Source of the DNA: an uncultured bacterium
GTDB taxonomy: Bacteria > Patescibacteriota > Patescibacteriia > Patescibacteriales > UBA12465
NCBI GenBank assembly: GCA_942492765.1
Contig: OW818634.1
Span: forward strand, 793,159-857,158
Length of the DNA stretch: 64,000 nt
Direction of reading: 5' to 3'
The notes under the pieces were generated by a model. That model searched no databases, was not told where the DNA came from, and worked only from the letters and a program-made list of their open reading frames with translations. The translations under genes were made by a program, and so were the position numbers. This document shows positions 46,073-62,513 of this stretch, piece by piece (position 1 is the first letter of the stretch; every line of letters begins with the position of its first letter).

Positions 46073-46148
46073 GCCGTTGTAGCTCAGCTGGTAGAGCATC
46101 TCCATGGTAAGGAGAAGGTCACCGGTTCAATCCCGGTCAACGGCTCCA
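46073..46148 (+). tRNA. tRNA-Thr (anticodon GGU), CCA encoded
   Basis: Acceptor gccgttg/caacggc, anticodon stem tctcc/ggaga with loop auGGUaa, T-loop ttcaatc. Confidence 0.9.
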
Positions 46149-46155
46149 GAGTTGA

Positions 46156-46185
46156 AAAATCTCCTATACTATTAGGGGATTTTTT
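46156..46185 (+). terminator. Terminator after tRNA-Thr
   Basis: aaaatctcct / aggggatttt stem (one G-U) plus T-run. Confidence 0.6.
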
Positions 46186-46189
46186 ATAT

Positions 46190-46216
46190 AAAAAAGCCGG
46201 AATTATTTTTCCGGCT
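46190..46216 (-). terminator. Terminator of the minus-strand gene 46227..46892
   Basis: agccgg / ccggct stem, T-run on the minus strand. Confidence 0.55.
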
Positions 46217-46226
46217 TTGCTATTTT

Positions 46227-46892
46227 TTAATCATCATCACCACTGTCATCGCAGATATAGCAATACCCATAACAGGTACAGTGGCCGCAGTTGCAGCGAC
46301 TTGGGTTGATTGTATAGCAGCTCATGCAGACGTCTTCTCCCTTTGCTTGCGCGGCTTCTGCTAGCTGTTTTTTGATGGCCAGTTCTTCCGCTCTTTTTTT
46401 CTCCTCTAGCTTATCTTGCTCTATCTTTTCAAGTTTTTTTCGCTCTTCTTCTGCCGCTATTTTCTTAAATTCTTCCTCTAATCGCATTCCTTCCCATTTT
46501 TTTAACATTTTGTAATATTCTGGGTCATAACGGCTACGATCTATCAGCCTGGGTGGAGGCGGCATAATATTTGCTGGCTTTAAAGATCCGGAGCGGTCGA
46601 AAAAGATGATCCATATGATTACTAGATAGAAGAGATATATCGGCAGAAGAAGCCACATATTCCATTTATGCTGCGAGATTAAGTGTATCGGAACAAAAAT
46701 TAGGGCAGTAATCAAAAGAAGTATTAGGTAAGAGAAAAGTTCTCCATTTTTTTTGATATTTTCCTCCTGCGCTGCTTTTAGTTTTTCCTGCTTACCAATT
46801 TCTGTCCATAGCTCCGATAGGCTCCATTTATGCAAATGCAGTCTATCTAGATCAACTAAGGAGCCTCTATTAAGATCGTCTCTGTCTTTCAT
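46227..46892 (-). CDS. Hypothetical membrane protein with Lys/Glu-rich coiled coil and Cys-rich acidic tail
   Basis: Two TM helices, EEERKKLEKIEQDKLEEKKRAEEL segment, C-terminus CMSCYTINPSRCNCGHCTCYGYCYICDDSGDDD. Start set at ATG 46892; the track start 46916 is a TTG only ~9 nt from the predicted TSS. Confidence 0.5.
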   Translation of the reverse strand: MKDRDDLNRGSLVDLDRLHLHKWSLSELWTEIGKQEKLKAAQEENIKKNGELFSYLILLLITALIFVPIHLISQHKWNMWLLLPIYLFYLVIIWIIFFDRSGSLKPANIMPPPPRLIDRSRYDPEYYKMLKKWEGMRLEEEFKKIAAEEERKKLEKIEQDKLEEKKRAEELAIKKQLAEAAQAKGEDVCMSCYTINPSRCNCGHCTCYGYCYICDDSGDDD

Positions 46893-47026
46893 GACTCTTA
46901 AGTTTTTAAAATACAATTTTGAAATCTCAAAAGATTATCAACTTTTATTAGTATTGTCAATTATATATAATATTTTGTTTATTATTAGCAGATTATTTGT
47001 AAATACTTGATATTTGACCCATCGGA

Positions 47027-47055
47027 TTGACAAAAATCTTAAAAAGTAGTATAAT
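47027..47055 (+). promoter_or_regulatory. Consensus sigma70 promoter
   Basis: TTGACA - 17 nt - TATAAT; leaves a ~90-nt leader before the ATG at 47150. Confidence 0.65.
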
Positions 47056-47149
47056 TATTTGAACACAATGAGTAATGGATGCCTAGGCAAAAGTTGCTCT
47101 TTTACAACTAAATAACGAAAAAATAAACTAAAAATAAGGAGACTGAATC

Positions 47150-47728
47150 ATGGCATTCAACTTGAAAGATTCTATTATGACTGGAGCGATTGAAGGTTTC
47201 GTAGTAAATTTCTTCCACTCCATAGGCGAGAGCGCCAGTGCAACCGCCAAAGAAAAAGGCGGCGAATTTCTTAAAGCTAAGGTATTCGGCATCGGAACAA
47301 ATGACGAGCATTTATTCCTTTCGGCTTGCGCTTACGCGCTGAACAAAGGCATGGTGACACATGATCAACTGATTTTGATCTGCAAGGTTATCGATAGCTA
47401 TGCTCCTTCTCAGAGAAGCCGCATCATTGATACCTTGGGCAAGACTGAAGATGAAGTAATCATGGATGACACCGAGAAGACCCACATCAAAGCGAACGTC
47501 AAAGGCGCTTTCATGTTAGCCATGTTGGCTAAATTAGACGAACCGGAGATGAAGAAAATTCTAGAAACATCCGGAGCCACAAACAGTTTCGCGGAGAACA
47601 TCAGCAAACTGACCAAGAATGTAACCGAGAAGATCGAGGGAGGCAAGTTTAACGAAGATTGCAAAGATTTCTTCGCTAAAGAAACTTTTCTAGAGAAACT
47701 CGCGAGAGAAGCAAAAGCAAAAGTATAA
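47150..47728 (+). CDS. Hypothetical soluble protein
   Basis: 192-aa ORF with AAGGAG SD; no motif recognised. Confidence 0.5.
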   Translation: MAFNLKDSIMTGAIEGFVVNFFHSIGESASATAKEKGGEFLKAKVFGIGTNDEHLFLSACAYALNKGMVTHDQLILICKVIDSYAPSQRSRIIDTLGKTEDEVIMDDTEKTHIKANVKGAFMLAMLAKLDEPEMKKILETSGATNSFAENISKLTKNVTEKIEGGKFNEDCKDFFAKETFLEKLAREAKAKV

Positions 47729-47751
47729 CTTAAAAAATGGAGGATTAAAAA

Positions 47752-48969
47752 ATGCATCTTATTCTGATCTTATTAATCGTTGCCTTATTGGCAGCCCTTT
47801 TCTTTTCTAGCGGTTTCCGTAGCTGGCTTTGGCGCCAACTGACCGCTATCTGGACTCTAATCCAGATTTACTTCCCGGTAGTTTCGAGAATAGTCAGGAT
47901 CTATTATATGATCATTCTCGGCATCGCCGCTTTCGCGTTTCTTCTGATGATGATTTCTTTGCCGTTCCAACTTTCAAGCCTGACAGCCTTTGCTTTCGTA
48001 CTCGCCATCTCGGCGGTATTGCTAGCTTGGCTGCCAATAGGAATAGTCCTGAGGACTCTCAGAGCGACTTCATCGGTCATTCCAAAAATTCTGAAGACCT
48101 TTGTAGCTTATGTAGCTTTCGTCGGTTTTATCGGATTAATGTATCCTGACGCTATCAGTTTCAAGACCATGCTGGGCGCTGCTTTAGTGGGGTTTATCTG
48201 CCTCGGAGTAACGGCCAAGATCAATCTTTTGGATAAGATTATCTTTCCATTAGTGATCTTCATGTGCCTGGTAGCAGTCTGGAAATATGTTTCTCCTGAC
48301 GGTTTCCGCTCGACGGTAAGATATGCTAGCTCTTGGAGCAAGCAGCTGAATACCCACAAAGACAGGGGAAGCATCAGACATGAAACCGACGCCGCCACTA
48401 CTTACGGGATAATATTGAAGGATGTTGATATCCTTTATACGTTATCAGACGCAGGGTTATCGGATGTTACAGCGGATCTGGCTAAGGGCACTATCGTGAA
48501 ATTAGCCGATCACAAAGAAGAAGTTAAGATTATCGACGGTCAAGGCTTTGTCCAAATCCAGTTAGCAAAGGCGAATAAGTCTTTCGTCCGCGGCAAGAAA
48601 TACTGGATCGAAGCTGAATTCGTGCAATTAGCCTCTCCTCGCGATATTACTCCCGAGGAAGATATTTCCCATAATGCTAATAAGGCAGTGACTGTAACGA
48701 GCCAAGCTGATACTATCGCGGTTCTATATCCAGGAGCGCGCAAGTTCGACTTAGTAGACGGAAAGTCTACAGGCTGGCTGACGCTTCCTAAATTTGGTAA
48801 ATTCCGTTATAGCATTTCTTCTCCTAATTACAACTATAAGATTATTTTTTCAGACGGAAAAGAGTATGCAGGAGGACCAAATACGGTTATTCCTTGGCGA
48901 GAAAGACCGATCTTTAAGGTTATAGCTCTCGATAATGAGACTATTTCCGTATCGATCATGAAAGTTTGA
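47752..48969 (+). CDS. Hypothetical membrane protein (about 6 TM N-terminal half, beta-rich C-terminal domain)
   Basis: 405-aa ORF with GGAGGA SD, 23 nt after the previous gene. Confidence 0.55.
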   Translation: MHLILILLIVALLAALFFSSGFRSWLWRQLTAIWTLIQIYFPVVSRIVRIYYMIILGIAAFAFLLMMISLPFQLSSLTAFAFVLAISAVLLAWLPIGIVLRTLRATSSVIPKILKTFVAYVAFVGFIGLMYPDAISFKTMLGAALVGFICLGVTAKINLLDKIIFPLVIFMCLVAVWKYVSPDGFRSTVRYASSWSKQLNTHKDRGSIRHETDAATTYGIILKDVDILYTLSDAGLSDVTADLAKGTIVKLADHKEEVKIIDGQGFVQIQLAKANKSFVRGKKYWIEAEFVQLASPRDITPEEDISHNANKAVTVTSQADTIAVLYPGARKFDLVDGKSTGWLTLPKFGKFRYSISSPNYNYKIIFSDGKEYAGGPNTVIPWRERPIFKVIALDNETISVSIMKV

Positions 48970-48972
48970 TTT

Positions 48973-49010
48973 AAAGGGGTGGTATTCGATGAGAATATCA
49001 TCCCTTTTTT
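48973..49010 (+). terminator. Rho-independent terminator
   Basis: 15-bp stem (aaaggggtggtattc / gaatatcatcccttt, two G-U) plus T-run. Confidence 0.7.
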
Positions 49011-49063
49011 ATTTTTTCACGAGATGATATAATACTAACAAGCATAAAATAATTTTTAAGAGT

Positions 49064-49435
49064 ATGAAAAAATTTCTTTTTTCTGGATTATTAATTTTTG
49101 TCTTCGTCTTTAGTTTCAACATCGTTTGGGCTCAGACGGGTACTGGCGGTTCAAACACCGGCGGCTCCGGCATCACCTTATCTAACCCCCTTGGCGACGT
49201 CACCTCCCCGCAAGCCTTTATCGGCAAGATCATCAATTCCATTCTCGGCGTGGTTGGATCCCTGGCTCTCCTCATGTTCGTCTATGGCGGCCTGACTTGG
49301 ATGACCTCTTCGGGCAGTCCGGACAAGGTTAAGAAAGGTCGGGATACCTTGCTTTGGGCAGCTATCGGCCTAGTCGTGATCTTTTCCGCTTACGGCTTGA
49401 CCCGCTTCATTCTCGGTACGGTCGTCACGCAATAG
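49064..49435 (+). CDS. TrbC/VirB2-like pilin-family protein
   Basis: Signal peptide, NPL motif, two hydrophobic helices flanking YGGLTWMTSSGSPDKVKKGRD; pattern of the small T4SS-pilin-like family common in CPR genomes. Confidence 0.6.
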   Translation: MKKFLFSGLLIFVFVFSFNIVWAQTGTGGSNTGGSGITLSNPLGDVTSPQAFIGKIINSILGVVGSLALLMFVYGGLTWMTSSGSPDKVKKGRDTLLWAAIGLVVIFSAYGLTRFILGTVVTQ

Positions 49436-49467
49436 TATTTAAGCTAGCTTCAAGAAAATATCGGACT

Positions 49468-49490
49468 CCGGCCTGTTTTCAGGCCGGTTT
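49468..49490 (+). terminator. Terminator after the pilin gene
   Basis: ccggcct / aggccgg stem followed by TTT. Confidence 0.5.
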
Positions 49491-49517
49491 GACAATTACC
49501 GATATTTTTTTTAATAT
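49489..49517 (+). promoter_or_regulatory. Sigma70-type promoter for tRNA-Tyr (and probably RNA copy A)
   Basis: TTGACA - 17 nt - TAATAT, 18 nt upstream of the tRNA 5' end. Confidence 0.65.
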
Positions 49518-49534
49518 AGAAGAGCAATCATCAA

Positions 49535-49618
49535 GGGTCGATACCAAAGCGGTCAACTGGGGCAGACTGTAAATCTGCTGGCCTTGCGCCTTCGTTGGTT
49601 CGAATCCAACTCGGCCCA
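49535..49618 (+). tRNA. tRNA-Tyr (anticodon GUA), long variable arm
   Basis: Acceptor gggtcga/tcggccc, anticodon stem gcaga/tctgc with loop cuGUAaa, variable arm tggccttgcgccttc, T-loop ttcgaat; no encoded CCA. Confidence 0.9.
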
Positions 49619-49636
49619 CTCTTTGAGATTTCAGTC

Positions 49637-49837
49637 ATTTTAAAAATCACCTCCGAAACCCGATCATTCGGGATATTAGCAATTATTTTTTGGACATGGC
49701 GTTGCTTCGTTAATATCGAAGCCATATCCGAGAGATAGTTATGTCACCTTTTTACGGCTTCGCTAGATTTAACTCGTATTCGGCCATAGTCGACCGGATA
49801 TCTTGGGGGTGATTTTTAAAATATGTTTCGCTAGTAA
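49637..49837 (+). ncRNA. RT-associated structured RNA, copy A (stand-alone, terminator-ended)
   Basis: 18-bp terminal stem: 49637-49654 pairs with 49805-49822. Internal hairpins cccga-tcat-tcggg and cttcg-ttaata-cgaag. Homologous to copy B; carries ATGTTT followed by an early stop. Confidence 0.6.
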
Positions 49838-49859
49838 GAGCCTGTTCAGGCTCTTTTTT
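49836..49859 (+). terminator. Rho-independent terminator ending RNA copy A
   Basis: aagagcc-tgttca-ggctctt followed by a T-run. Confidence 0.7.
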
Positions 49860-49895
49860 GTTGGGCGGTTTCCTCGGGTTTTTGCGCTGGTGAAG

Positions 49896-49924
49896 TTGAT
49901 AAAAAAGACGGATTAGGCTAAAAT
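49896..49924 (+). promoter_or_regulatory. Sigma70-type promoter for RNA copy B / RT operon
   Basis: TTGATA - 17 nt - TAAAAT, ending ~15 nt before the copy B 5' stem arm. Confidence 0.6.
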
Positions 49925-49939
49925 ATTAATGTGCTAGTT

Positions 49940-50129
49940 ATTTTAAAAATCATCCTCAAAACCCGATCATTCGGGATATTAGCAATTATTTTTCGGACAT
50001 GGCGCTAGCTTCGTTAATATCGAAGTCGTATCCGAGAAATAGTCAGAAGGGGTATCTGTTAAATTTAATTCATATCCGGCCGCAGCCGACCGGTTATCTT
50101 GGGGATGATCTTTAAAATATGTTTAGTAA
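49940..50129 (+). ncRNA. RT-associated structured RNA, copy B (5' leader of the RT gene)
   Basis: Terminal stem: 49940-49957 pairs with 50101-50118 (one mismatch, one G-U). Same internal hairpins as copy A. 3' arm ends 1 nt before the RT ATG. Confidence 0.6.
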
Positions 50130-51324
50130 AATTTTGTGTTACTCTAATTTCGAAGCCGCTTATCTGGAGATAATTGAACAGTTTTCTAATGATCGCCGCA
50201 ACTTCAAGTATCATGGCCTGGATAATATCTTTCTGCGCGATCTTGATCTCAAATCTCGGAAGATAATCAAGTCGGCTCTAGCCGATCTCTCGCAGAAGAA
50301 GGAGATTGAGCCGGCTCTCTGCGTTTCCATCCCTAAGCCTAATAAGCCGGGCGAGCATCGGGAAATCTTTATCTACAACCTGAAAGAAAGGATCAAAGCT
50401 CAGGCTATCTACCGCATCGTCCTGCCGGAGTTCGAGAAGATCTTTTCCGACAGGCTTTTTTCATATCGGCCAGGCAAGCCGCCTTATCTCGCCGCGCGGA
50501 TATTCTGCCGCCGCTATCGCCGCTCTTTTAAGAGCGACCAAGCGCTGGTGATAGACTTGAAGAATTATTCCGACAGAATAGATCGAGAGAAGATGTTTGC
50601 GCAGCTGCAGGCGATATTTCCCGATAAGAAAGTCTTGGAGCTCTTGCGCCTCTTCATTTTCAACAAGGTCTATCGCGATGGCGTCTGTCTAACGCCTGAT
50701 AAAGGCTTGGTGCAGGGCGTGCCGCTTATCGCTTTGTTCGCTAATCTTTATCTGACCGACTTGGACTTTAAATATCAGGCTGAAGCCGATTTCTATATCC
50801 GCGTCGGCGACGATATTGCCTTATTGGATCCGGATTTAGAAAAGCTCCGGAATATATTGGCGGAGATTTCTGAAGATATTGCCGCGCGCGGACTGGAGAT
50901 CAACCAGAAGAAATTATTCATCGGTCCGGCTAAGGAGAGGTTCTCCTTCCTCGGCTACGCCTTTAATTCCGGCCTGATCGGCTTGGAACCGGGCTTCATC
51001 AGGCGTATCGAGATGGAATGGAAGAGGCTCTTGATCTACCAGCACTCGGCAGAATGGGCTAAGCGGCGGATAATCATGAAGATGATGAGCCGGCCGGAGA
51101 AAAGCATCAACGATCAGTTTCAGAAGATCGTTAGGGATAAATGCCAGATCAATGACTCGGATCAGATCAAGAAGGTGTCGGAGAAATTCTTTTCGATCCT
51201 GACCAAGTTCTTCTATGAGCATTATTCGCCGCGTAATCGCCGCCGCTTAGAAGGCGACTTGAAAGAGTTCGGCATAGTCTCCCTTTATAATACCTATAAG
51301 AATTTTCATTATGATAGACGATAA
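50119..51324 (+). CDS. Reverse transcriptase (stand-alone, unclassified prokaryotic RT)
   Basis: RT motifs: IPKPNKPGEHREI (1/2), SYRPGKPP (3), LVIDLKNYSDRID (A), GLVQGVPLIALFANLYL (B'), YIRVGDDIALL (C), FSFLGYAF (E); 401 aa. Confidence 0.85.
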   Translation: MFSKILCYSNFEAAYLEIIEQFSNDRRNFKYHGLDNIFLRDLDLKSRKIIKSALADLSQKKEIEPALCVSIPKPNKPGEHREIFIYNLKERIKAQAIYRIVLPEFEKIFSDRLFSYRPGKPPYLAARIFCRRYRRSFKSDQALVIDLKNYSDRIDREKMFAQLQAIFPDKKVLELLRLFIFNKVYRDGVCLTPDKGLVQGVPLIALFANLYLTDLDFKYQAEADFYIRVGDDIALLDPDLEKLRNILAEISEDIAARGLEINQKKLFIGPAKERFSFLGYAFNSGLIGLEPGFIRRIEMEWKRLLIYQHSAEWAKRRIIMKMMSRPEKSINDQFQKIVRDKCQINDSDQIKKVSEKFFSILTKFFYEHYSPRNRRRLEGDLKEFGIVSLYNTYKNFHYDRR

Positions 51325-53023
51325 GAATCAGATAAGCTTATTGAGGAAGGTCCGGATGCGGCGCGTCAAACATCAGACGCAGGAATCCGAGGACCTCAAT
51401 AAGGATTATATCCGCGCTTTTTTCAATAAGCATAAGCTCCTTATCTTGGGGACTCTCGCTTTATTCCTGACCCAAGGAATCATCGAAACCTTTCTCGTCA
51501 TCGTCGGCCGAAGCCGGCTGGCTTATGACGGCGGCCGGACGGCGGGAACGCTCTTCTGGCAGCTCTTGATTATTCTGCTCACGTTATTCGTCGTCAATTC
51601 CTTTTTCTCTATCAAACAGGAGAAGACGATCGTCGTTATTTTTGTTAACAATCTCCGCCGCCGCATCTTTAGGAATTATCTGGGTAAGGCGCCGGAGAAG
51701 ATGAGAGCGGAGGGGCAAGCCGATCTCGTCGCTAAGATCTCTTATCATCTGCCGCTCGTCTCGATGGGCGTCTCTAATTCTTTTTTCGGTCTGGCGAGAT
51801 GGGTTATCTACTTGGCTTCAGCCTCGGTCGTCGCGCTTTTAGCCGGCCTTAACGTATCTCTCATCGCTGCCTTCTTCATTGTATTATCAGTCATCATCGC
51901 CTTAGCTTCATATTTCACAGTTAAGCGCTATGTTTCGCAGGAAGTCACCTTCTTCTCGCAGATTATTAAGCACATCAATCTCAGCTTGTCGGAAAAATAT
52001 TTTTCCAAAGGCTTTAATCTGGAGCCCGTGGTCATGAAGAAGTTCGACCGCCTGGTCGATTTCGATTCTATTTTCAGGATACGCCGCGACCTCTGGATGA
52101 AGATGGGCTTCAAGATAGTCTTCGCTATCGTTCTGGTCGTTTCTGTATTGAGTAACGCTTTTTACGGCGGGCTGGCTGAGAAGATAAATCTGATTCGGCC
52201 GGAGCTGAAGTTTTTGTATGTCTTCCTTCTGATTTATCTGTCGCGCATCATTACTGAATCCCTGCGTATCGGTCTTTATTTCTTCCCGGCCAAGCTGGGC
52301 TTGTCGCTCACTAATGTGCCGCTCGAAAAATACTTGCATCGCAGCAATATCAAGAATATCAAGAGCGAGATTGCTTTCTCTAGCCAGAAGACGAAACTGT
52401 TCAGGCAGGGCAGGTATTATCGAAACCTTGAGCTCCGTTTCTTAAGAGGCGGACGTTATCTGTTCTTCGGACCCAATCTCTCGGGTAAGACTGTTTTAGC
52501 CAAGTTATTTTTCGGCGGCGAGACTTATAACTCTAAGGCGCTGAAAGTAAAGATAGACGGGCAGAGGTTGGATTTCTATGAGTACCAGAGGAAATTCAAT
52601 CAGGCTTATTATTTCGATCCTAATTTTAATTCCCAAAAGAGCCTGATTGAGATAATTACCGGCTCAGACAGGGAAGAGACCGCTTTCCCGGAAATCGAAG
52701 AAGCCTTGCGGATAATGGCTGCTCAGCCCGCGATCTCCAACTTAGTTTCTCCGAAGAAGAATTTTAATCTGTCGGCTGGCGATATCTGGGATAATCACTT
52801 GACCGCCTTTGCCCTGCATGCGGCGCATTGCTTGGTCGTAAAACCCGCGCTTATCATCATCGATAATCTCTGGCTTGATCTGGATTACCCGGGTATCAAG
52901 GAGATGTTGAGCACTATCAGTCGGGAATTGCCAGAGTCCATCATCATCGTTTTTGCCCATAAGGATATTGATAATTTAAATTATGATAAACGTTATGACC
53001 TGGAAAAAAATCTTAAATTTTAG
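51311..53023 (+). CDS. ABC exporter-like TMD-NBD protein with degenerate ATPase motifs
   Basis: ~6 TM helices of the type I exporter pattern. NBD has Walker A GPNLSGKT, signature LSAGD (vs LSGGQ), Walker B LIIIDN (no catalytic Glu), H-loop FAHK. Start overlaps the RT stop by 14 nt. Confidence 0.7.
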   Translation: MIDDKNQISLLRKVRMRRVKHQTQESEDLNKDYIRAFFNKHKLLILGTLALFLTQGIIETFLVIVGRSRLAYDGGRTAGTLFWQLLIILLTLFVVNSFFSIKQEKTIVVIFVNNLRRRIFRNYLGKAPEKMRAEGQADLVAKISYHLPLVSMGVSNSFFGLARWVIYLASASVVALLAGLNVSLIAAFFIVLSVIIALASYFTVKRYVSQEVTFFSQIIKHINLSLSEKYFSKGFNLEPVVMKKFDRLVDFDSIFRIRRDLWMKMGFKIVFAIVLVVSVLSNAFYGGLAEKINLIRPELKFLYVFLLIYLSRIITESLRIGLYFFPAKLGLSLTNVPLEKYLHRSNIKNIKSEIAFSSQKTKLFRQGRYYRNLELRFLRGGRYLFFGPNLSGKTVLAKLFFGGETYNSKALKVKIDGQRLDFYEYQRKFNQAYYFDPNFNSQKSLIEIITGSDREETAFPEIEEALRIMAAQPAISNLVSPKKNFNLSAGDIWDNHLTAFALHAAHCLVVKPALIIIDNLWLDLDYPGIKEMLSTISRELPESIIIVFAHKDIDNLNYDKRYDLEKNLKF

Positions 53024-54197
53024 TGATAGGAATAATCGCGGGCGGAAAGCCCGGTTAATTATTCTGCCGCTCGTGATTTTGGGACTGGTAGCATACGCGG
53101 GCATGATGATATTCCGCTTGTATCAGGAGTCAGTCGGCCGCCAGATCGCGCCAGCAGAGATGATCAAGATCAACGAGCCGTTCTCAGGCAGTGCGCATTT
53201 TAACGACAAACTCGGCCAGGATGATTTTTCTCAGCTGATCGTTAGCAGCATTGATCAGGCCGAGAAGACCGTTGATATCGCCGTCTATTCCATGGATAGC
53301 CAGGACATCCGGGACGCTCTCTATCGCGCGGCCAAGAGAGGCGTCACGGTTAGCGCCATCTTCAGCGATAAGCGCCAAGAGATAATCGTGGCGCTTTTCA
53401 AGGATAAGCCGGATAACGTTAAGATCGGCTTCATTCCTTCGGATATTTCCAGCTACATGCATCATAAGTTCATGTTGGTCGACCGCGGTTTGAGCCGCCA
53501 GAAATTATTTTTCTCTTCTTATAATTTTACTTATTTCCAAGGCAAATATGACCCGAGCTTCATCCTCGAGACCGGCCGTCCGGAATTAGTAGCCGTCTTT
53601 GGCAAAGAATTCGACCGCCTAGTCATCGAGCTCAATGATAAGGTGAAGCAGCCGCCCGTCAATCCTTTTGCCGCCCGGATAGAATATACCGACGGCTTCT
53701 TGGAAGTTTGGTTCGCGCCGGGAACGCCTAAACATAATATCAAGAGCCGGATGATCGGCTTGATTCAGAGCTCCACGAACAATATCAAGGTTTTGATCTG
53801 GTATCTGACCGATAAAGAGATTGCCGCTGAATTAGCGGAAGCGTCTCGGACCAAGCCGGTCTGTCTAGTGACTGACGATTTTAATTGGCTCGCTCCAGGC
53901 TCGGCTTTCCCGATCCTAGAAGCTCAGAGGGCCAGGCAGAAATTAGATAAGCTTGAGCTTATCCAAGACAGCCAGCGGAACGCGGAAGTAGGCCGGCTCA
54001 TGAACGATACTGGCTTCAATTCTTTCTTGCACCAGCATCTTTTGATAATCGATGATAAAATTGCTTTGTTTGGAACTAATAATTGGAGTTTCGGCGGCTT
54101 CTTTACTAACAGCGAATCAATCATGATTACTGACATTAAGAGCCTAGTCGACGCCTTTAGAGGCTCATACCAGGCTAACTATGACGCTAATAAATAA
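52983..54197 (+). CDS. Membrane-anchored PLD/HKD-superfamily protein (nuclease- or phospholipase-like)
   Basis: N-terminal basic stretch plus single TM. HKD-1 HHKFMLVD..SSYNFT. HKD-2 HQHLLIIDDKIALFGTNNWS (Lys replaced by His). Overlaps the previous gene by 41 nt. Confidence 0.75.
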   Translation: MINVMTWKKILNFSDRNNRGRKARLIILPLVILGLVAYAGMMIFRLYQESVGRQIAPAEMIKINEPFSGSAHFNDKLGQDDFSQLIVSSIDQAEKTVDIAVYSMDSQDIRDALYRAAKRGVTVSAIFSDKRQEIIVALFKDKPDNVKIGFIPSDISSYMHHKFMLVDRGLSRQKLFFSSYNFTYFQGKYDPSFILETGRPELVAVFGKEFDRLVIELNDKVKQPPVNPFAARIEYTDGFLEVWFAPGTPKHNIKSRMIGLIQSSTNNIKVLIWYLTDKEIAAELAEASRTKPVCLVTDDFNWLAPGSAFPILEAQRARQKLDKLELIQDSQRNAEVGRLMNDTGFNSFLHQHLLIIDDKIALFGTNNWSFGGFFTNSESIMITDIKSLVDAFRGSYQANYDANK

Positions 54198-57440: not shown

Positions 57441-58103
57441 ATGGAAAATATCCTTAAGCAAAAAGCGTTGGATTTGAGAAAACAGGGCTATTCTTTTAAT
57501 GAAATGAGCCGGCTGCTTAATGTTGCTAAAAGTACGGTTTCTCTATGGACTAGATCAGTACCACTGAGCGAGAATGCTAAGCTGAGGATAAGAGATTTAG
57601 GCGATAAAGGCAGGTGGAAAGCTAGAGAGACTATCAGGCGCAAACAAGCCTTGATTCTCGATGGCATTAAAAATGATTGCGGCGCGTTGGTTAATAAAAA
57701 ATACGGGTTAGATGATTATAAGTTATTCTTGGCGCTTTTATATTGGGGAGAAGGGGCTAAGACTGAGCATAGACTTAATTTTATCAATTCTGATCCAGAC
57801 ATGATCAGGATATACCTATGGCTATTAAGAAAGTCTTTTATTATTAAGGAAGAGCACTTGAAAGGCCTGCTTCATCTTCACGAATATCATAATCGGGAGG
57901 AAATGGTTGATTTTTGGTCTAAAATAACGGGTATTCCCAAAAATAATTTTTCCATATATAATAAGCCCCATACTGGAATCAATAAGAAGCCCGGTTATAA
58001 GGGCTGCTTGTCAATTCGGTATGGAGATAGTAGAATAATAAAAGAGATTTTTATTATCATTGAGAGGTTTAAAAATCTAGCTAATATTGCGGGATTGGTG
58101 TAG
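57441..58103 (+). CDS. HTH-domain protein with possible single LAGLIDADG-like motif
   Basis: N-terminal HTH (YSFNEMSRLLNVAKSTVSLW); LALLYWGEGAK resembles a LAGLIDADG/GEG motif; stop codon lies 15 nt inside tRNA-Trp; visibly more AT-rich than its neighbours. Confidence 0.45.
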   Translation: MENILKQKALDLRKQGYSFNEMSRLLNVAKSTVSLWTRSVPLSENAKLRIRDLGDKGRWKARETIRRKQALILDGIKNDCGALVNKKYGLDDYKLFLALLYWGEGAKTEHRLNFINSDPDMIRIYLWLLRKSFIIKEEHLKGLLHLHEYHNREEMVDFWSKITGIPKNNFSIYNKPHTGINKKPGYKGCLSIRYGDSRIIKEIFIIIERFKNLANIAGLV

Positions 58104-58159
58104 TGGTAACATATCTCTCTCCAAAAGAGCAGACGGGGGTTCGATTCCCTCATCCCGTG
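58089..58159 (+). tRNA. tRNA-Trp (anticodon CCA)
   Basis: Acceptor gcgggat/atcccgt (G1-U72), anticodon loop cuCCAaa, T-arm ggggg-ttcgatt-ccctc. Confidence 0.8.
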
Positions 58160-58170
58160 CGGAAAAGCAT

Positions 58171-58199
58171 AAAAGACGCCTTGATTTAAGGCGTCTTTT
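58171..58199 (+). terminator. Terminator after tRNA-Trp
   Basis: aaaagacgcc / ggcgtctttt 10-bp stem. Confidence 0.7.
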
Positions 58200-58246
58200 A
58201 TCTTAGTATAAAGCTATCATTCTATCATTAATGAATTCTAGATTCT

Positions 58247-58933
58247 ATGGAAAAATCTTATAAATATTTCAGCGCTATCTGCGTCTTCTTCGTCTCTGTG
58301 CTCTTGATCTCTAACGTCGCGTCGACGAAGATCGTCGACTTGAAATGGTTTACTTTCGACGGCGGAACCTTATTATTCCCGTTGAGCTATATCTTCGGCG
58401 ATATCCTGACCGAAGTCTATGGCTATAAGAAATCTAGGCAGGCGATTTGGCTCGGCTTCTTCGCGGCCCTCGTCATGTCTTTAGTCTTCATTATCGTAGG
58501 TAAGCTACCGGCCGCTCCGGGCTGGGAGAATCAGGAGGCTTATGACAAGATACTGGGTCTCACGCCGCGCATCGTCGTCGCGAGCTTAGTCGCCTATCTT
58601 TGTGGCGAGTTCATGAATTCTTTTATACTCGCCAAGATGAAGATAATGACTAAGGGCAAGTGGCTCTGGACGCGGACAATCGGTTCGACCTTGGTCGGGG
58701 AGCTAGTCGACAGCCTGATTTTCGTCCTCGTCGCTTTTGCCGGTTTATTGCCATGGCCTTTGATTATGACCCTCATAGTTTCTAATTACGTCTTTAAGAC
58801 TTTGGTCGAGATATTGTTTACGCCTTTGACCTATAAGGTTGTCGGCTTCCTGAAAAAGAACGAGCAGGAGGATTATTATGACTATGGGACGAAGTTTGGG
58901 GTGTTTGGGAGGGTAGGGAAATTGGATAGATAA
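58247..58933 (+). CDS. yhhQ: Queuosine-precursor transporter (YhhQ/DUF165 family)
   Basis: FPLSYIFGDILTEVYGY and polytopic membrane pattern of DUF165. Confidence 0.8.
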   Translation: MEKSYKYFSAICVFFVSVLLISNVASTKIVDLKWFTFDGGTLLFPLSYIFGDILTEVYGYKKSRQAIWLGFFAALVMSLVFIIVGKLPAAPGWENQEAYDKILGLTPRIVVASLVAYLCGEFMNSFILAKMKIMTKGKWLWTRTIGSTLVGELVDSLIFVLVAFAGLLPWPLIMTLIVSNYVFKTLVEILFTPLTYKVVGFLKKNEQEDYYDYGTKFGVFGRVGKLDR

Positions 58934-58941
58934 AGATAAAG

Positions 58942-58962
58942 AAAGGATGTGGGAATCCTTTT
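58942..58962 (+). terminator. Terminator after yhhQ
   Basis: aaaggat-gtggga-atccttt hairpin plus T. Confidence 0.55.
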
Positions 58963-59045
58963 GAATATTATTTAAGCTAATTCTTTAATTTTTGCTAAAT
59001 ATGTATATTTGTATTAGAATATAGTTATAGCATATTCTAAATATA

Positions 59046-59936
59046 ATGAATAAAATTCAACTTGATAAAATAATTAATATTTTGCCAAAATCAAAAGTAA
59101 AGCTCTTGAAAAAAGGGAAAAATTTTCATATTTTATTAACAGGCGACTCTGCGAAAATATTAGAATCATTTCCAGATGGTTCGGTTGATGTTATCTTTAC
59201 CGACCCCCCATACAATGCCAGATTAAATTATGGTGATACATATAATGATAATTTACCTCGAGCCGAGTATTTTGAACAAACTCTTCTATGGTTCAAGGAT
59301 TATGCAAGGATACTAAGCGATAAGGGGTGTCTGTATTTGATGAATTATCCAGAAATTAATGCAAGAATTTTGCCTTATTTAGAAGATAAGCTGGGGTTAA
59401 TTTTTAAAAGATGGATTACGTGGCACTACCCGACAAATATTGGCCACTCTAGGAACAATTTTACTAGAAGTCAGAGATCAATTCTATTTTTATCAAAAAC
59501 AGATAATCATACATTTAATAGAGATAGAATATTGCAACCATACAAGAACCCTGGGGTTGGAAAAATAAAGAAACTTTTACAAGAGGGAAGTAAGGGTCGT
59601 GCAGCATATGATTTTTTGGATTTTATTGATTTGTTAGAAATGAGGACTGTCGAAAATGATTTTAGCCCCCTGGATGTGCATGACGTTGATTTATTGAAAA
59701 ATGTAAGTAAGGATAGATTAAATGAAAAACATCCATGTCAGCTCCCATTTGAATTGATAAAAAGATTATTATTAGTTAGTAGCAAAGCAGGAGATGTGGT
59801 GTTGGACCCATTCGCCGGGACATTTAGCACATCTTCCGTGGCAACAAATTTAGGGCTTAGTTCTGTCGGCATTGAAATAAATCCAGAATACGTTAATTTA
59901 GGATTGGAGAGGTTGAAACGACATGTAACACAATAG
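59046..59936 (+). CDS. DNA methyltransferase, beta-class N4-cytosine/N6-adenine type
   Basis: Motif IV FTDPPYN precedes motif I VLDPFAGTFST (order IV then I = beta class). Confidence 0.85.
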   Translation: MNKIQLDKIINILPKSKVKLLKKGKNFHILLTGDSAKILESFPDGSVDVIFTDPPYNARLNYGDTYNDNLPRAEYFEQTLLWFKDYARILSDKGCLYLMNYPEINARILPYLEDKLGLIFKRWITWHYPTNIGHSRNNFTRSQRSILFLSKTDNHTFNRDRILQPYKNPGVGKIKKLLQEGSKGRAAYDFLDFIDLLEMRTVENDFSPLDVHDVDLLKNVSKDRLNEKHPCQLPFELIKRLLLVSSKAGDVVLDPFAGTFSTSSVATNLGLSSVGIEINPEYVNLGLERLKRHVTQ

Positions 59937-59963
59937 GTTGGTAGAAACATAAGGTGTTTAAAT

Positions 59964-61670: not shown

Positions 61671-61734
61671 GAAGATTTTTTTTGGTTACCGTAAAGATAT
61701 CTTCTGTAAATTATAATTTACACCTAATATGGAC

Positions 61735-61757
61735 AACTCAGCGCGGGCTGGGTTTTT
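61735..61757 (+). terminator. Terminator after the DGQHR gene
   Basis: ctcagc-gcgg-gctggg stem followed by TTTTT. Confidence 0.55.
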
Positions 61758-61784
61758 ATTTTTGACTTTTTTGTAATATTATGA

Positions 61785-61826
61785 GATTATGAAGAAAAGA
61801 TAAAAAGATTATGAAGAAAAGATAAA
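61785..61826 (+). repeat. Tandem direct repeat, 2 x 20 nt at 22-nt period
   Basis: gattatgaagaaaagataaa at 61785-61804 and 61807-61826, each containing the mini-ORF ATG AAG AAA AGA TAA; ends 9 nt before the endonuclease ATG. Confidence 0.9.
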
Positions 61827-61835
61827 TTTAATATT

Positions 61836-62513
61836 ATGTTAAAAACAGCGCAAGAAGTCTTTAACCTGCTCAAGAAGCAACATATTGAGAAGTACAATGG
61901 GAATATATCTCTAAATTTAATGAATATTTCTGTCGCGCTTACCGATAAAAGTGCCGTGGGTTATATTTTTCAGGAGTGGCTCGCCTCTTGGTTATCTAAA
62001 AATAAAATTAATTTTGAAGTAAATTTAAATACTCAAGAATTTCCCGATTTTTATCTTAACCCCGGTCGTCATAATCGGAATTTGTTAGAAGTAAAGACAT
62101 TCGATATTGAGGCGAGCGCTAATTTTGATATAGCTAATTTTGATGCTTATTGTAGATCTTTAGAAACAAAAGCTTATAGACTTGACGCTGATTATTTAAT
62201 TTTCGGGTATTCTTTTGTCGATGGGCTTTTAACAATTAAAGAGGTTTGGTTGAAAAAAATTTGGGAAATTACAAGCCCAAGTGCTCGTTTTTCTGTAAAG
62301 ACACAAGTGAAGCAGGATATTATATATAATATAAGACCGTGCACTTGGTGGTCTGATAAAGCCGAATATAAGGCCTTCGAGACAAAAGGAGATTTTGTAA
62401 AAGCATTGTATAAAACTTTAATAGAATATAGAGGCAACAAAAAAATAGCTGATCATTGGATCAAAAGTGTAGAGGCTGGTTATATTAGAGGTGGCGGAAG
62501 AAAATTTTTATAG
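61836..62513 (+). CDS. Putative type II restriction endonuclease (PD-(D/E)xK)
   Basis: EFPDF...(14 aa)...LLEVKTFD matches PD...ExK; convergent with and overlapping the C5-MTase gene by 6 nt. Confidence 0.6.
   Translation: MLKTAQEVFNLLKKQHIEKYNGNISLNLMNISVALTDKSAVGYIFQEWLASWLSKNKINFEVNLNTQEFPDFYLNPGRHNRNLLEVKTFDIEASANFDIANFDAYCRSLETKAYRLDADYLIFGYSFVDGLLTIKEVWLKKIWEITSPSARFSVKTQVKQDIIYNIRPCTWWSDKAEYKAFETKGDFVKALYKTLIEYRGNKKIADHWIKSVEAGYIRGGGRKFL

What the first reader, a model, noticed from the sequence alone, without database searches (positions are those of the whole stretch)
50119..51324. RT with an atypical motif C (VGDD) and no retron, DGR or group II accessory hallmarks
Seen: motif C reads YIRVGDDIALL, where prokaryotic RTs usually have Y/F-x-DD (RYADD, YMDD). 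Motif B' is GVPLIALFANLYL. The sequence after motif E is FLGYAF rather than a retron-type VTG. I find no DGR-type (I/L/V)GxxxSQ, no maturase X/En or HNH extension, no fused nitrilase, primase or HEAT-repeat domain, and only a ~100-aa C-terminal tail. Established: those motifs are the usual hand-checkable discriminators of the main prokaryotic RT classes. Inference: this is a minimal stand-alone RT of an unclassified or poorly sampled clade.
Basis: partly seen in the sequence, partly recalled or inferred. Interest (0 to 1): 0.6.

Follow-up and report, generated by a model that had tools for sequence, protein, structure and literature searches.

The report
RT–RNA–ABC–PLD module of Patescibacteria
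The odd reverse transcriptase is real, but it is not a lone gene: it is the first gene of an undescribed, conserved four-part module found in ultra-small Patescibacteria (a structured RNA, the reverse transcriptase, a crippled ABC-exporter-like membrane protein and a membrane-anchored nuclease), and this module is most likely a new RT-based conflict or defence system.

Summary
The ORF at 50119-51324 and all quoted motifs are real. V-G-D-D is invariant across about 160 homologues, so it is a clade signature and not a one-off. The "stand-alone, no accessory hallmarks" reading is wrong on three counts.

1. The C-terminal "tail" folds as a group II-type thumb/X plus D-like region (TM 0.82 to GsI-IIC RT).
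2. A 190-300-nt structured RNA with a 20-bp closing stem lies directly 5' of the RT. It has no Rfam match, 30 of its 33 modelled pairs covary, and it is duplicated in this window.
3. The RT is followed in every sufficiently long locus (49 of 49, plus later look-ups) by two overlapping genes. One is an ABCB-type exporter homologue whose catalytic Glu is Asn and whose signature motif is degenerate. The other is an N-terminally membrane-anchored Nuc/NucT/Zucchini-type PLD nuclease with HxK and HxH motifs.

No curated family accepts the RT. Its sister group is UG26, whose true members score 416-550 bits against 118 here and carry Y-S/A-D-D. The steric-gate Phe is Ser/Thr/Ala/Gly in 93% of members.

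The module is under purifying selection, co-diverges as a unit, and has been swapped as a cassette at a fixed locus. Function is inferred, with defence the most likely.

The parts
50119..51324 (+). Reverse transcriptase, 401 aa. It has a group II intron-like fold (N-terminal extension, fingers/palm, thumb/X-like and D-like C-terminus). Motif A is D146 with Y150-S151, motif C is V229-G230-D231-D232.
49936..50124 (+). Structured RNA, copy 2, forming the 5' leader of the RT mRNA. The P1 closing stem pairs 49939-49959 with 50099-50119. Its 3' arm contains the Shine-Dalgarno-like GGGGATGA and ends on the A of the RT ATG. Inside P1 are a CCC/GGG hairpin, a long hairpin with apical loop CGUUAAUAUCG, a variable region and a 3' hairpin.
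49633..49828 (+). Structured RNA, copy 1: an extra, RT-less copy about 79% identical to copy 2, with compensatory changes in P1 (P1 arms 49637-49654 / 49805-49822). It lies between tRNA-Tyr and a terminator-like hairpin.
49896..49924 (+). Promoter-like site (TTGATA-17-TAAAAT) about 12 nt upstream of RNA copy 2. This is a consensus match only.
49836..49865 (+). Terminator-like hairpin plus T-run directly after RNA copy 1. This is a consensus match only.
51311..53023 (+). ABC-exporter-like membrane protein, 570 aa, overlapping the RT by 14 nt. It has 6 TM helices plus an NBD. Walker A is kept, Walker B Asp518 is kept but the catalytic Glu is Asn519, and the LSGGQ signature and H-loop are degenerate.
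52983..54197 (+). Membrane-anchored tandem PLD-family (Nuc/NucT/Zucchini-type) protein, 404 aa, overlapping the ABC-like gene by 41 nt. It has a single N-terminal TM helix (residues 25-43), an H160-x-K162-x4-D167 motif, and an invariant variant second motif H350-x-H352-x4-D357.
49535..49619 (+). tRNA-Tyr, the upstream boundary of the variable locus in this lineage. It is not a conserved partner of the module.

Best explanation
SHOWN. The RT belongs to a discrete, Patescibacteria-restricted clade of domesticated group II intron-like RTs that is sister to UG26. It always occurs as one co-inherited unit with three partners. The first is a clade-specific structured RNA of 190-300 nt immediately 5' on the same strand. 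The second is an ABCB-type half-transporter homologue with a nucleotide-binding but catalytically degenerate NBD. The third is a tandem Nuc/NucT-type PLD nuclease with an N-terminal membrane anchor. The three genes overlap, are under purifying selection, co-diverge, and are exchanged as a cassette at a fixed chromosomal site.

INFERRED, the mechanism I commit to. The RNA is the RT's cognate partner, as intron RNA is for group II RTs and 5' ncRNAs are for DRT2 and DRT9. The RT binds it and copies part of it, or uses it as a scaffold. This cytoplasmic ribonucleoprotein docks on the cytoplasmic NBD of the ABC-like protein. That protein acts as a gated membrane effector or transducer rather than a pump, because it lacks the catalytic Glu and the signature motif. 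It is paired with the membrane-anchored PLD nuclease. The whole would be an accessory conflict (anti-phage or anti-MGE) system in which the RT/RNA module senses or times the response and the membrane pair executes it. In this subclade the P1 stem also occludes the RT's ribosome-binding site, which gives RNA- or RT-dependent control of RT translation.
For: Module conservation: the RT, ABC-like and PLD genes are present in 49 of 49 loci where the contig allows, with unrelated flanks. Look-ups starting from the PLD find the trio again. The most divergent member keeps all three genes in a different order. PLD and ABC-like homologue searches return only module orthologues.

Co-divergence and selection: identities correlate at r = 0.93-0.95, and dN/dS is 0.06-0.13 for all three genes.

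RNA: it ends at or near the RT start in about 38 of 49 loci, and also in L050 and L053. L051 shows the same architecture. In the 32-sequence alignment 94.7% of cells are paired, 30 of 33 pairs show compensatory change, and 0 of 500 shuffles reach the observed values, against 37-48% paired in slid controls. An independent MAFFT/RNAalifold analysis finds 16 of 33 compensatory pairs. Fold z-scores are -4.9 to -6.0.

Polymerase: the catalytic residues are invariant.

Precedent: 5' ncRNA plus RT in DRT2 and DRT9, and UG/Abi Class 2 RTs with ncRNAs (PMC9226505). Retron systems that pair RT and ncRNA with an ATPase plus a nuclease appear among the abstracts listed.

Accessory or conflict-like behaviour: the family comprises only about 46 clusters. 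Several genomes carry 2-3 copies. Against L002, identity is 100% in tRNA-Tyr, 62-78% across the module and 84-98% downstream, and module dS is 1.5-2.3 against 0.54 for fpg. Two R-M systems lie about 5 kb downstream in this window. The PLD has DrmC/MkoB-like PADLOC hits.
Against: There is no experimental or expression data. Flanking genes of 133 neighbours across loci are mainly housekeeping or stress genes, with only scattered defence hits, so there is no defence-island enrichment. Power is low, however, because defence models come from cultivated bacteria.

The positive-inside rule places the PLD catalytic domains outside the cytoplasm: about 5 K/R on the N-flank against about 2.4 on the C-flank in 46 of 46 orthologues. 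That is awkward for a cytoplasmic nuclease effector.

No template, primer or product can be read from the RNA, and a DRT2-like continuous ORF is absent. Sister group UG26 has only an 'inconclusive' defence prediction in the literature. The RNA could be purely a cis-regulatory leader.
Confidence: 0.5

Rival explanations
1. The module is an envelope nucleic-acid trafficking or scavenging machine, not a defence system. The surface-exposed NucT-like nuclease processes extracellular nucleic acid. The ABC-fold protein moves or gates nucleic acid or oligonucleotides across the membrane. The RT copies or converts the incoming strand, or alternatively makes a product that is exported. This would serve the nucleotide-auxotrophic, epibiotic lifestyle of Patescibacteria.
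For: The PLD profile is closest to NucT, Nuc and Zucchini nucleases (NCBIfam NucT models). The predicted N-in/C-out anchor puts the nuclease outside the cell. The type IV ABC fold is confirmed. Flanks are housekeeping genes rather than defence islands. The module is restricted to Patescibacteria. That NucT acts in natural transformation in Helicobacter, and that Patescibacteria depend on scavenged nucleotides, is my own knowledge and was not tested here.
Against: The module is rare and patchy (about 46 clusters; 49 of roughly 185,000 species genomes), which is unexpected for a core salvage function. It is exchanged as a divergent cassette. No ABCB-type protein is known to move nucleic acids. 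The NBD lacks the catalytic Glu and the signature needed for a transport cycle.
Confidence: 0.2
2. The 5' RNA is only a cis-regulatory leader, an autoregulatory RT-binding site or riboswitch-like element occluding the RBS. It is not a template or scaffold for polymerisation.
For: In this subclade the 3' arm of P1 contains the SD-like GGGGATGA and ends on the A of the ATG. Group II intron RTs autoregulate by binding DIVa, which covers their own RBS (established knowledge, not tested here).
Against: In more distant members the RNA ends 9-33 nt upstream of the ATG, leaving the RBS free (L025, L028, L049). RT-less extra copies are kept with compensatory changes in four independent lineages (window, L006, L028, L049). 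Here the extra copy has its own terminator-like site, which fits a trans-acting RNA. The RNA has 4-6 conserved helices and invariant unpaired blocks, more than an RBS-occluding hairpin needs.
Confidence: 0.25
3. The RT is a cellular DNA-repair or damage-tolerance polymerase like G2L4 RT, with the neighbours being incidental or auxiliary.
For: The fold resembles G2L4 RT (TM 0.71). G2L4 differs from group II RTs by a single motif C change, YIDD (abstract of 10.1101/2022.03.14.484287). In this window fpg and rubrerythrin lie downstream, and stress genes recur in the flanks.
Against: The sequence match to G2L4 is weak (41 bits, partial). The fpg and stress neighbours are not conserved. The strictly conserved partners are membrane proteins and a structured RNA, which G2L4 lacks. 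The distribution is patchy and cassette-like.
Confidence: 0.08
4. It is a mobile retroelement or a decayed group II intron, and the repeated RNA marks retro-duplication or element ends.
For: The RT core is closest to group II intron RTs (112 bits; TM 0.82). The locus is next to a tRNA and differs between near-isogenic genomes. The RNA is duplicated, and some genomes hold 2-3 copies.
Against: No intron RNA domains are found even at E <= 10. There is no En/HNH domain. The tRNA neighbourhood is not conserved. The RT never occurs without the two host-type membrane genes. The genes show strong purifying selection and co-divergence. The element is on one of 2.9 million viral contigs, and that one looks like a CPR genomic fragment.
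Confidence: 0.04
5. One reading: a minimal stand-alone RT with no partners.
For: No fused accessory domain is detectable by Pfam, NCBIfam or PADLOC.
Against: The three-gene synteny with overlapping ends is invariant, the 5' RNA is conserved and covarying, and the thumb is a full group II-type thumb.
Confidence: 0.02

Closest known systems
UG26 reverse transcriptases (Class 2 of the UG/Abi lineage; Mestre et al. 2022, PMC9226505)
   Same: UG26 is the nearest named group. All 81 tested members hit the RT_UG26 model. Bona fide UG26 proteins (P0217, P0228, P0195, P0265) fall in the clade that encloses the family in the NJ tree (121 of 200 bootstraps). Both are about 400 aa with no fused domain. 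Class 2 RTs are known for 5' ncRNAs.
   Different: The family scores 118-135 bits, mostly on the RT core, against 416-550 bits over the full profile for true UG26. Motif C is V-G-D-D rather than Y-S/A-D-D, and the gate residue is Ser rather than Phe. The literature reports only an occasional Vsr-type endonuclease neighbour for UG26, with no ABC or PLD partner and no RNA.
Group II intron RTs (e.g. GsI-IIC RT, PDB 6AR1) and the G2L lineage of intron-less group II-like RTs
   Same: These are the best sequence and fold matches among solved structures: 112 bits with the alignment starting in the N-terminal extension, and TM 0.82/0.79 over the whole chain. The family has no intron RNA, which is the defining trait of G2L (PMC8632793). 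The nearest non-family sequences include GIIM-containing RTs and RT-Cas1 fusions.
   Different: The NCBIfam group II RT/maturase model scores 119.5 against a cut-off of 300. Motif C is V-G-D-D rather than Y-A-D-D, and S151 replaces F143. The family is not G2L4 (41 bits). It has dedicated membrane partners and its own RNA family.
DRT2 (UG2) and DRT9 (UG28): RT plus an essential 5' ncRNA
   Same: The architecture is the same: a structured ncRNA immediately upstream of a roughly 400-500-aa RT on the same strand. The fold is similar to DRT9 (TM 0.69).
   Different: The Drt2 model scores 33 bits against a cut-off of 390, and the Drt9 model 63 bits. There is no rolling-circle-type continuous ORF. 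DRT2 and DRT9 are single-protein systems, whereas here there are two obligatory membrane partners. The RNA has no Rfam relative.
Retron systems with ATPase + nuclease effectors (type I-A; Retron-Eco7/Ec78 with PtuA/PtuB)
   Same: The logic is the same: RT plus a structured ncRNA closed by a long terminal stem, plus an ABC/SMC-type ATPase and a nuclease (paper abstracts listed).
   Different: The RT is not retron-type: it scores 28 bits to Ec86 with TM 0.46-0.48, and it has no VTG motif. The ATPase here is a membrane ABCB-type half-transporter with a degenerate site, and the nuclease is a membrane-anchored PLD rather than an HNH enzyme.
Nuc / NucT / Zucchini (MitoPLD) single-HKD nucleases and type IV ABC exporters (MsbA, TM287/288, McjD, HlyB)
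   Same: The PLD profile matches Zucchini, NucT and Nuc at E about 1e-17 to 1e-15. The ABC-like profile and model align over their full length with ABCB-type exporters.
   Different: The PLD is a fused tandem with a second motif HxH(x)4D, invariant in 46 of 46 orthologues, and a FAM83-like second half. In the ABC-like protein, Asn replaces the catalytic Glu in 38 of 40 orthologues, and the signature and H-loop are not conserved. Most orthologues get no Pfam call at all.

Membership tests
Group II intron RT/maturase (mobile intron) | Score at or above the curated cut-off of NCBIfam TIGR04416 (300 bits) | tested here: not met
   119.5 bits, covering model positions 13-270 of 353.
Group II intron RT/maturase (mobile intron) | ORF embedded in intron RNA (domains I-VI) | tested here: not met
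   No Rfam intron family is found at gathering score across the window or at E <= 10 in 49600-50200. The downstream gene overlaps the RT stop.
Group II intron RT/maturase (mobile intron) | Fingers/palm with N-terminal extension plus thumb (X) fold | tested here: met
   TMq 0.82 / TMt 0.79 to GsI-IIC RT over the full length. The model has pLDDT 92.6.
G2L (group II-like, intron-less) lineage | RT closest to group II intron / CRISPR-associated RTs and lacking intron RNA (definition in PMC8632793) | tested here: met
   Searches show closeness, and searches show no intron RNA. Placement in one of the published G2L clades could not be tested because no reference sequences were available.
G2L4 RT | Close sequence relationship to G2L4 and YIDD motif C | tested here: not met
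   41 bits with a partial alignment. Motif C is VGDD.
UG26 (Class 2 UG/Abi) | Full-length, high-scoring match to the RT_UG26 model | tested here: not met
   The window RT scores 118 bits on profile positions 44-294 of 398. The family's best E-value is 1e-39. Bona fide UG26 proteins score 416-550 bits on positions 1-397.
UG26 (Class 2 UG/Abi) | Phylogenetic placement inside the group | tested here: inconclusive
   The NJ tree puts the family as one clade (82 of 200 bootstraps) next to UG26 within an enclosing clade (121 of 200). That is sister-group placement with modest support. No ML tree on reference alignments was made.
Retron | Retron-type RT (VTG region, retron HMMs) and msr-msd with branching G | tested here: not met
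   Ec86 RT scores 28 bits, TM is 0.46-0.48, and no retron model is among the top PADLOC hits. The sequence after motif E reads FLGYAF. A long terminal stem exists, but no G follows the 5' arm.
DGR | DGR RT motif (I/L/V)GxxxSQ and a TR/VR repeat pair | tested here: not met
   Motif B reads VQGVPLIALFANLYL. The only repeats are the two RNA copies. TM to the DGR RT is 0.63.
DRT2 / DRT9 | Curated model score; for DRT2, an ncRNA giving a stop-free concatemer frame | tested here: not met
   Drt2 scores 33 bits against a cut-off of 390, and Drt9 63 bits. None of 25 RNAs has a circularly open frame.
CRISPR-associated RT | Fusion or adjacency to Cas1/Cas6 and a CRISPR array | tested here: not met
   There is no Cas domain and no array in 40-64 kb. 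The similarity to RT-Cas1 is confined to the RT core.
Type IV (ABCB-like) ABC exporter - partner gene 51311-53023 | Six-helix TMD plus NBD fold | tested here: met
   The profile aligns end to end with ABCB1, TM288 and PCAT1. The model (pLDDT 84) matches MsbA, TAP, McjD and HlyB at TM about 0.6.
Type IV (ABCB-like) ABC exporter - partner gene 51311-53023 | Catalytically competent NBD (Walker B Glu, LSGGQ, H-loop His) | tested here: not met
   Asn is at the Glu position in 38 of 40 orthologues, and the signature and H-loop columns are not conserved. Walker A and the Walker B Asp are kept.
PLD superfamily, Nuc/NucT nuclease branch - partner gene 52983-54197 | HxK(x)4D motifs forming one active site | tested here: inconclusive
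   The first motif is canonical and invariant. The second is an invariant HxH(x)4D with a conserved G-T-N-N-W-S. The best PDB relatives are Zucchini, NucT and Nuc. Activity and substrate were not tested.

The most novel reading that the evidence does not exclude
The clade's active site has lost both bulky residues that press on the sugar 2' positions: the steric-gate Phe is Ser/Thr/Ala/Gly in 93% of members, and the Y-A of YADD is V-G. This gives an RdRP-like '...GDD' palm, and some relatives even hit viral RdRP Pfam models. The enzyme may therefore polymerise ribonucleotides or mixed polymers from its own RNA. Its product, or an incoming strand, may be handed through or sensed by a non-hydrolysing ABC-exporter-like channel to an extracytoplasmic Nuc-type nuclease. 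That would make it an RT-derived, membrane-coupled nucleic-acid trafficking machine of the CPR cell envelope rather than a cytoplasmic abortive-infection system.
Probability: 0.1. Interest if true: 0.9.

Novelty: new variant of a known kind. Interest (0 to 1): 0.72.

Why it matters
Domesticated prokaryotic RTs (retrons, DRTs, Abi, DGRs, CRISPR-RTs, G2L4) have each turned out to use a different and often surprising chemistry. This module adds a clade with three features not reported together: a distinctive active site (Ser at the steric gate, V-G-D-D), a new and strongly covarying RNA family, and obligatory membrane partners (a degenerate ABC exporter homologue plus an anchored PLD nuclease).

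It is confined to Patescibacteria, whose defence repertoire and envelope biology are largely unknown. Standard defence annotation only gives these organisms generic 'RT' and 'hypothetical protein' labels. The module offers a compact, testable system of four parts in about 4.5 kb. It also provides a ready covariance model and a possible wider RT-ABC exporter association in UG26-like RTs. The altered sugar-contact residues make the enzyme a candidate for unusual substrate specificity, which may have biotechnological interest.

Tried and rejected
- **tRNA-linked integration as a family feature.** tRNA adjacency is seen only in the window, L001 and L002.
- **Group II intron or other known RNA.** No Rfam hit even at E <= 10.
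- **DRT2-like rolling-circle ORF in the RNA.** None in 25 RNAs.
- **CRISPR array or DGR repeats.** None.
- **Phage carriage.** One hit in 2.9 million viral contigs. Its neighbours are giant GIGTT-repeat proteins shared with CPR genomic loci, so it is probably not a phage.
- **Defence-island enrichment of flanks.** Not seen in 133 neighbours.
- **ABC-like or PLD relatives outside the module.** None found, but both searches are limited by the word index.
- **First NJ tree.** Discarded because the Kimura correction produced NaN distances, then redone with Poisson distances.
- **UG26 reference sequences from the supplements of PMC9226505.** Not held. Bona fide UG26 proteins were identified instead by HMM score.
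- **Literature searches.** Searches for RT + ABC + PLD, for VGDD, and for CPR G2L RTs found no description of this module.
- **Model coordinates.** These could not be inspected, so the position of Ser151 at the steric gate rests on sequence alignment to GsI-IIC and not on measured geometry.
Full report
**1. The observation**

ORF 50119-51324 (+) encodes 401 aa and contains the quoted strings YIRVGDDIALL, GVPLIALFANLYL and FLGYAF. It is a real reverse transcriptase: Pfam RVT_1 scores 59.4 bits, E 5e-16, covering the whole model. No HNH/En, nitrilase, primase, HEAT or DGR-type features are detected. No intron or other Rfam RNA is found, and there is no CRISPR array.

A homologue search gave 158 proteins, nearly all 398-425 aa, from Patescibacteria such as Falkowbacteria and Magasanikbacteria. 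In alignments of 27 and 81 of them the whole length is conserved, including the C-terminal 100 aa, and G230-D231-D232 is invariant. The atypical motif C is therefore a clade signature and not an accident.

**2.

A high-confidence model (pLDDT 92.6, pTM 0.87) superposes over its full length on the GsI-IIC group II intron RT (TMq 0.82 / TMt 0.79). It matches DRT9 (0.69), G2L4 (0.71), DGR (0.63), DRT2 (0.52) and retron RTs (0.46-0.48) less well. The "tail" is thus a group II-type thumb/X with a D-like end.

By sequence profile the best solved relatives are again group II RTs (112, 108 and 107 bits, with the alignment starting at residue 1 in the N-terminal extension) and Cas6-RT-Cas1 (98 bits).

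That alignment also shows that the GsI-IIC steric-gate residue F143 (catalytic D138 + 5) corresponds to Ser151. Across 160 family sequences this position is Ser, Thr, Ala or Gly in 149 and Phe in 8. It is Phe or Tyr in 91 of 101 of the nearest non-family RTs. At motif C the family reads V-G-D-D (Gly in 158 of 159) against mostly Y-A-D-D outside. So both residues that in RTs pack against the sugar of the incoming nucleotide and of the primer end are reduced in size. The exceptions (6% with Phe) mean this is a strong tendency and not an absolute rule. Its consequence for substrate choice is inference only.

**3. Classification**

No curated model accepts the protein. NCBIfam group II RT/maturase scores 119.5 against a cut-off of 300, Drt3a 34 against 200, and Drt2 33 against 390. 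The PADLOC best hits are a generic RT model (129 bits), RT_UG26 (118 bits, profile positions 44-294 of 398) and RT-Cas1 (103 bits). All 81 tested members behave the same way.

An exhaustive search of 1.84 billion representatives finds only 46 clusters at E <= 1e-30. Full-length family matches extend down to about 130 bits. Below that are RT-core-only matches to GIIM-containing RTs, RT-Cas1 and RT-primase fusions.

In a bootstrapped NJ tree of the RT core (149 sequences), all 67 sampled family members plus two further V-G-D-D sequences form one clade (82 of 200 bootstraps). The enclosing clades add about 400-aa Y-S/A-D-D RTs and double-RT proteins (121 of 200), then Y-G-D-D RTs (134 of 200). 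The ~400-aa sisters are bona fide UG26: they score 416-550 bits over the full RT_UG26 profile, with Y-S/A-D-D and an aromatic gate residue.

The family is therefore sister to UG26, a Class 2 UG/Abi group with "inconclusive" defence status and an occasional Vsr neighbour (PMC9226505). It is not a member of UG26, and V-G-D-D is not the norm of that class. It also satisfies the published definition of the G2L lineage: closest to group II and CRISPR RTs, with no intron RNA (PMC8632793).

**4. The RT is not alone: two partner genes**

The next ORF (51311-53023, 570 aa) overlaps the RT by 14 nt. The following ORF (52983-54197, 404 aa) overlaps that one by 41 nt. In 49 loci retrieved from GTDB species genomes, every locus long enough carries RT, ABC-like and PLD genes in this order, while the flanks are unrelated. 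Starting from divergent PLD homologues finds the same trio. The most divergent family member has PLD, a gap, RT and ABC. Searches with the PLD and with the ABC-like protein return only module orthologues. Identities of the three proteins across 46 loci correlate at r = 0.93-0.95, and all three are under purifying selection (dN/dS 0.06-0.13).

*The ABC-like protein.* It has a 2+2+2 set of TM helices and a C-terminal NBD. Its profile aligns end to end with ABCB-type exporters. Its model (pLDDT 84) matches MsbA, TAP, McjD, HlyB and TM287/288. Walker A and the Walker B Asp are kept, but the catalytic Glu is Asn in 38 of 40 orthologues, and the LSGGQ signature and H-loop are not conserved. Most orthologues receive no Pfam assignment. 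This suggests nucleotide binding without a normal hydrolytic transport cycle, which is an inference.

*The PLD protein.* It has one N-terminal TM helix in 46 of 46 orthologues. There are about 5 K/R residues before the helix and about 2.4 after it, which predicts an N-in/C-out topology with the catalytic domains outside the cytoplasm (inference from the positive-inside rule). It has an invariant H-x-K-x4-D...S-x-N motif and an invariant variant second motif H-x-H-x4-D...G-T-N-N-W-S. Its closest solved relatives are Zucchini/MitoPLD, NucT and Nuc, that is, the nuclease branch of the superfamily (NucT models; DrmC and MkoB).

**5. The RT is not alone: a new structured RNA**

The 500 nt between tRNA-Tyr (49535-49619) and the RT hold two copies of a ~190-nt element, at 49633-49828 and 49936-50124. 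Each folds with a ~20-bp closing stem around several hairpins (z = -5.4 and -4.9). The second copy ends on the RT start codon.

The element is found in the same place in relatives by nhmmer. A covariance model built from 13 sequences finds it directly upstream of the RT in about 38 of 49 loci, down to about 40% RT identity, and also in L050 and L053. L051, which the model missed, shows the same architecture (z = -6.0).

Covariation support is strong. The MAFFT/RNAalifold alignment has 16 of 33 pairs with compensatory changes. In the 32-sequence model alignment, 94.7% of cells are paired and 30 of 33 pairs show double changes. None of 500 shuffles reaches the observed values, and slid-register controls reach only 37-48% paired. 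That alignment is fitted to the model, so it leans towards the structure, but the independent MAFFT result agrees.

Individual folds give a common plan:
- P1, a 20-24 bp closing stem.
- A small hairpin followed by a conserved GGGAUAUUA-like block.
- A long hairpin with a conserved apical loop (CGUUAAUAUCG or CCGCUAAUGCCGG).
- Variable inserts.
- A 3' hairpin.

Rfam has no relative even at E <= 10. There is no DRT2-like continuous frame.

Tandem second copies occur independently in L006, L028 and L049, at 80-90% identity with compensatory changes. In the window, copy 1 is followed by a terminator-like hairpin, and copy 2 is preceded by a promoter-like site. Both are consensus matches only. This suggests that one copy is made as a free RNA and the other as the mRNA leader. 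In this subclade the P1 3' arm includes the SD-like GGGGATGA and the A of the ATG. In distant members the RNA ends 9-33 nt before the ATG.

**6. Population behaviour**

L001 and L002 share the window's locus, between tRNA-Tyr and fpg. Against L001, identity is a uniform ~91%. Against L002 it is 100% in the tRNA, 62-78% across the RNA, RT, ABC and PLD, and 84% rising to 98% through fpg and rpmG. Module dS is 1.5-2.3 against 0.54 for fpg, while dN/dS stays at 0.11-0.13. This indicates replacement by an older-diverged allele of the whole cassette, not relaxed or positive selection.

The stretch between the tRNA and the RNA differs in all three genomes. Some genomes hold two or three modules. The flanks of 133 neighbours are housekeeping or stress genes without defence-island enrichment. 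In this window, however, two R-M systems lie about 5 kb downstream in a low-GC island after tRNA-Trp. Only one of 2.9 million viral contigs has the module, and its neighbours look like CPR genomic genes.

**7. Wider link**

Two UG26-like Y-G-D-D RTs outside the family (P0162, P0192) each sit tail to tail with a canonical ABC exporter gene whose 3' end overlaps theirs. The RT-ABC exporter association may therefore be older than the Patescibacteria clade. This rests on 2 of 2 informative cases and needs a survey.

**8. Mechanism**

*Shown:* a co-inherited, selected four-part module with an intact polymerase site.

*Inferred:* the RNA is the RT's cognate partner, acting as template or scaffold as in group II introns, DRT2, DRT9 and retrons. 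The ribonucleoprotein communicates with the cytoplasmic, nucleotide-binding but hydrolysis-impaired NBD of the ABC-like protein. That protein, together with the anchored PLD nuclease, is the output device at the membrane.

I consider an accessory conflict or defence role the most likely (about 0.5). The reasons are the RT + ncRNA + ATPase + nuclease logic, the sister-group relation to UG/Abi RTs, the rarity, multi-copy occurrence and cassette exchange. The absence of defence-island context and the predicted extracytoplasmic nuclease count against it.

The main rival is an envelope nucleic-acid trafficking or scavenging role (about 0.2). A G2L4-like repair role (about 0.08) and a mobile element (about 0.04) are less likely. 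Whether the RNA is only a translational leader (about 0.25) is a separate question that does not exclude the others.

**9. Novelty and limits**

No paper in the searchable library describes this gene combination, the RNA or the V-G-D-D clade. Public records call the RT "reverse transcriptase/maturase family protein" and the ABC-like gene "hypothetical protein". I rate it a new variant of a known kind, namely RT + ncRNA + effector systems.

The limits are as follows. Nothing here is experimental. The phylogeny is NJ with moderate support. The topology and the steric-gate inference rest on sequence rules. The promoter and terminator calls are pattern matches. The homologue searches for the partner proteins are restricted by the word index.

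Noticed in passing
window 58089-63830: A low-GC stretch (0.31-0.38) directly after tRNA-Trp holds two restriction-modification systems: an N6/N4 methylase (59046-59936) with an unassigned 568-aa ORF (59964-61670), and an NgoBV-type endonuclease (61836-62513) with a C5 cytosine methylase (62508-63830, minus strand). A Vut_1 transporter (58247-58933) precedes them. It looks like an acquired defence island about 5 kb from the RT module.
   Followed up: partly
window 46073-49619: The segment between tRNA-Thr (46073-46148) and tRNA-Tyr (49535-49619) has lower GC (0.40). It differs from the near-isogenic L001. It encodes unassigned membrane or coiled-coil proteins plus a T4SS/TrbC-type pilin (49064-49435). 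This looks like a second variable islet bounded by tRNAs.
   Followed up: partly
L055 1059-4134; L056 85-3160; L057 13-3297: UG26-like RTs with Y-G-D-D motif C (P0162, P0192), outside the family, each lie tail to tail with a canonical ABC exporter gene that overlaps their 3' end. This may be a wider RT-ABC exporter association.
   Followed up: partly
L054 3721-8996: The most divergent family member has the order PLD (498 aa, with an extra LTD-like domain), a 780-nt gap, RT, then a Pfam-recognisable ABC exporter. The gap holds a different, tandemly repeated (~190-nt period) hairpin-rich element instead of the family RNA.
   Followed up: partly
P0161, P0165, P0166, P0241 (no locus): Among the nearest outsiders are 795-858-aa proteins with two tandem RVT_1 domains plus a GIIM fragment. 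One also has a weak viral RdRP_1 Pfam hit. These double-RT proteins were not examined further.
   Followed up: no
L025 11-5677 and 10173-12026; L030, L035, L036, L050: In one subclade the module is preceded by a giant (1400-1900 aa) 'NVGIGTTNP'-repeat protein with no Pfam domain. It is followed by two or three ~200-aa cupredoxin-like proteins. The same giant protein probably explains why L050 was catalogued as viral.
   Followed up: partly
L006 5632-6006; L028 920-1514; L049 5389-5992: Independent tandem duplications of the 5' RNA occur in three other lineages, with 80-90% identity between copies and compensatory changes. Recurrence suggests that two copies are useful, or that the element duplicates easily.
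   Followed up: partly
L002, L008-L010, L012, L013 and others (record titles): Many loci carrying this Patescibacteria-type module come from MAG records titled 'uncultured Gammaproteobacteria bacterium'. Single ones are labelled Omnitrophota, Flavobacteriaceae or Sphaerochaetaceae. These are probably placeholder or mis-binned taxonomy rather than true hosts.
   Followed up: no
window 61784-61826: A perfect 22-nt direct repeat (2 copies, AGATTATGAAGAAAAGATAAAA) lies just upstream of the NgoBV-type endonuclease gene.
   Followed up: no
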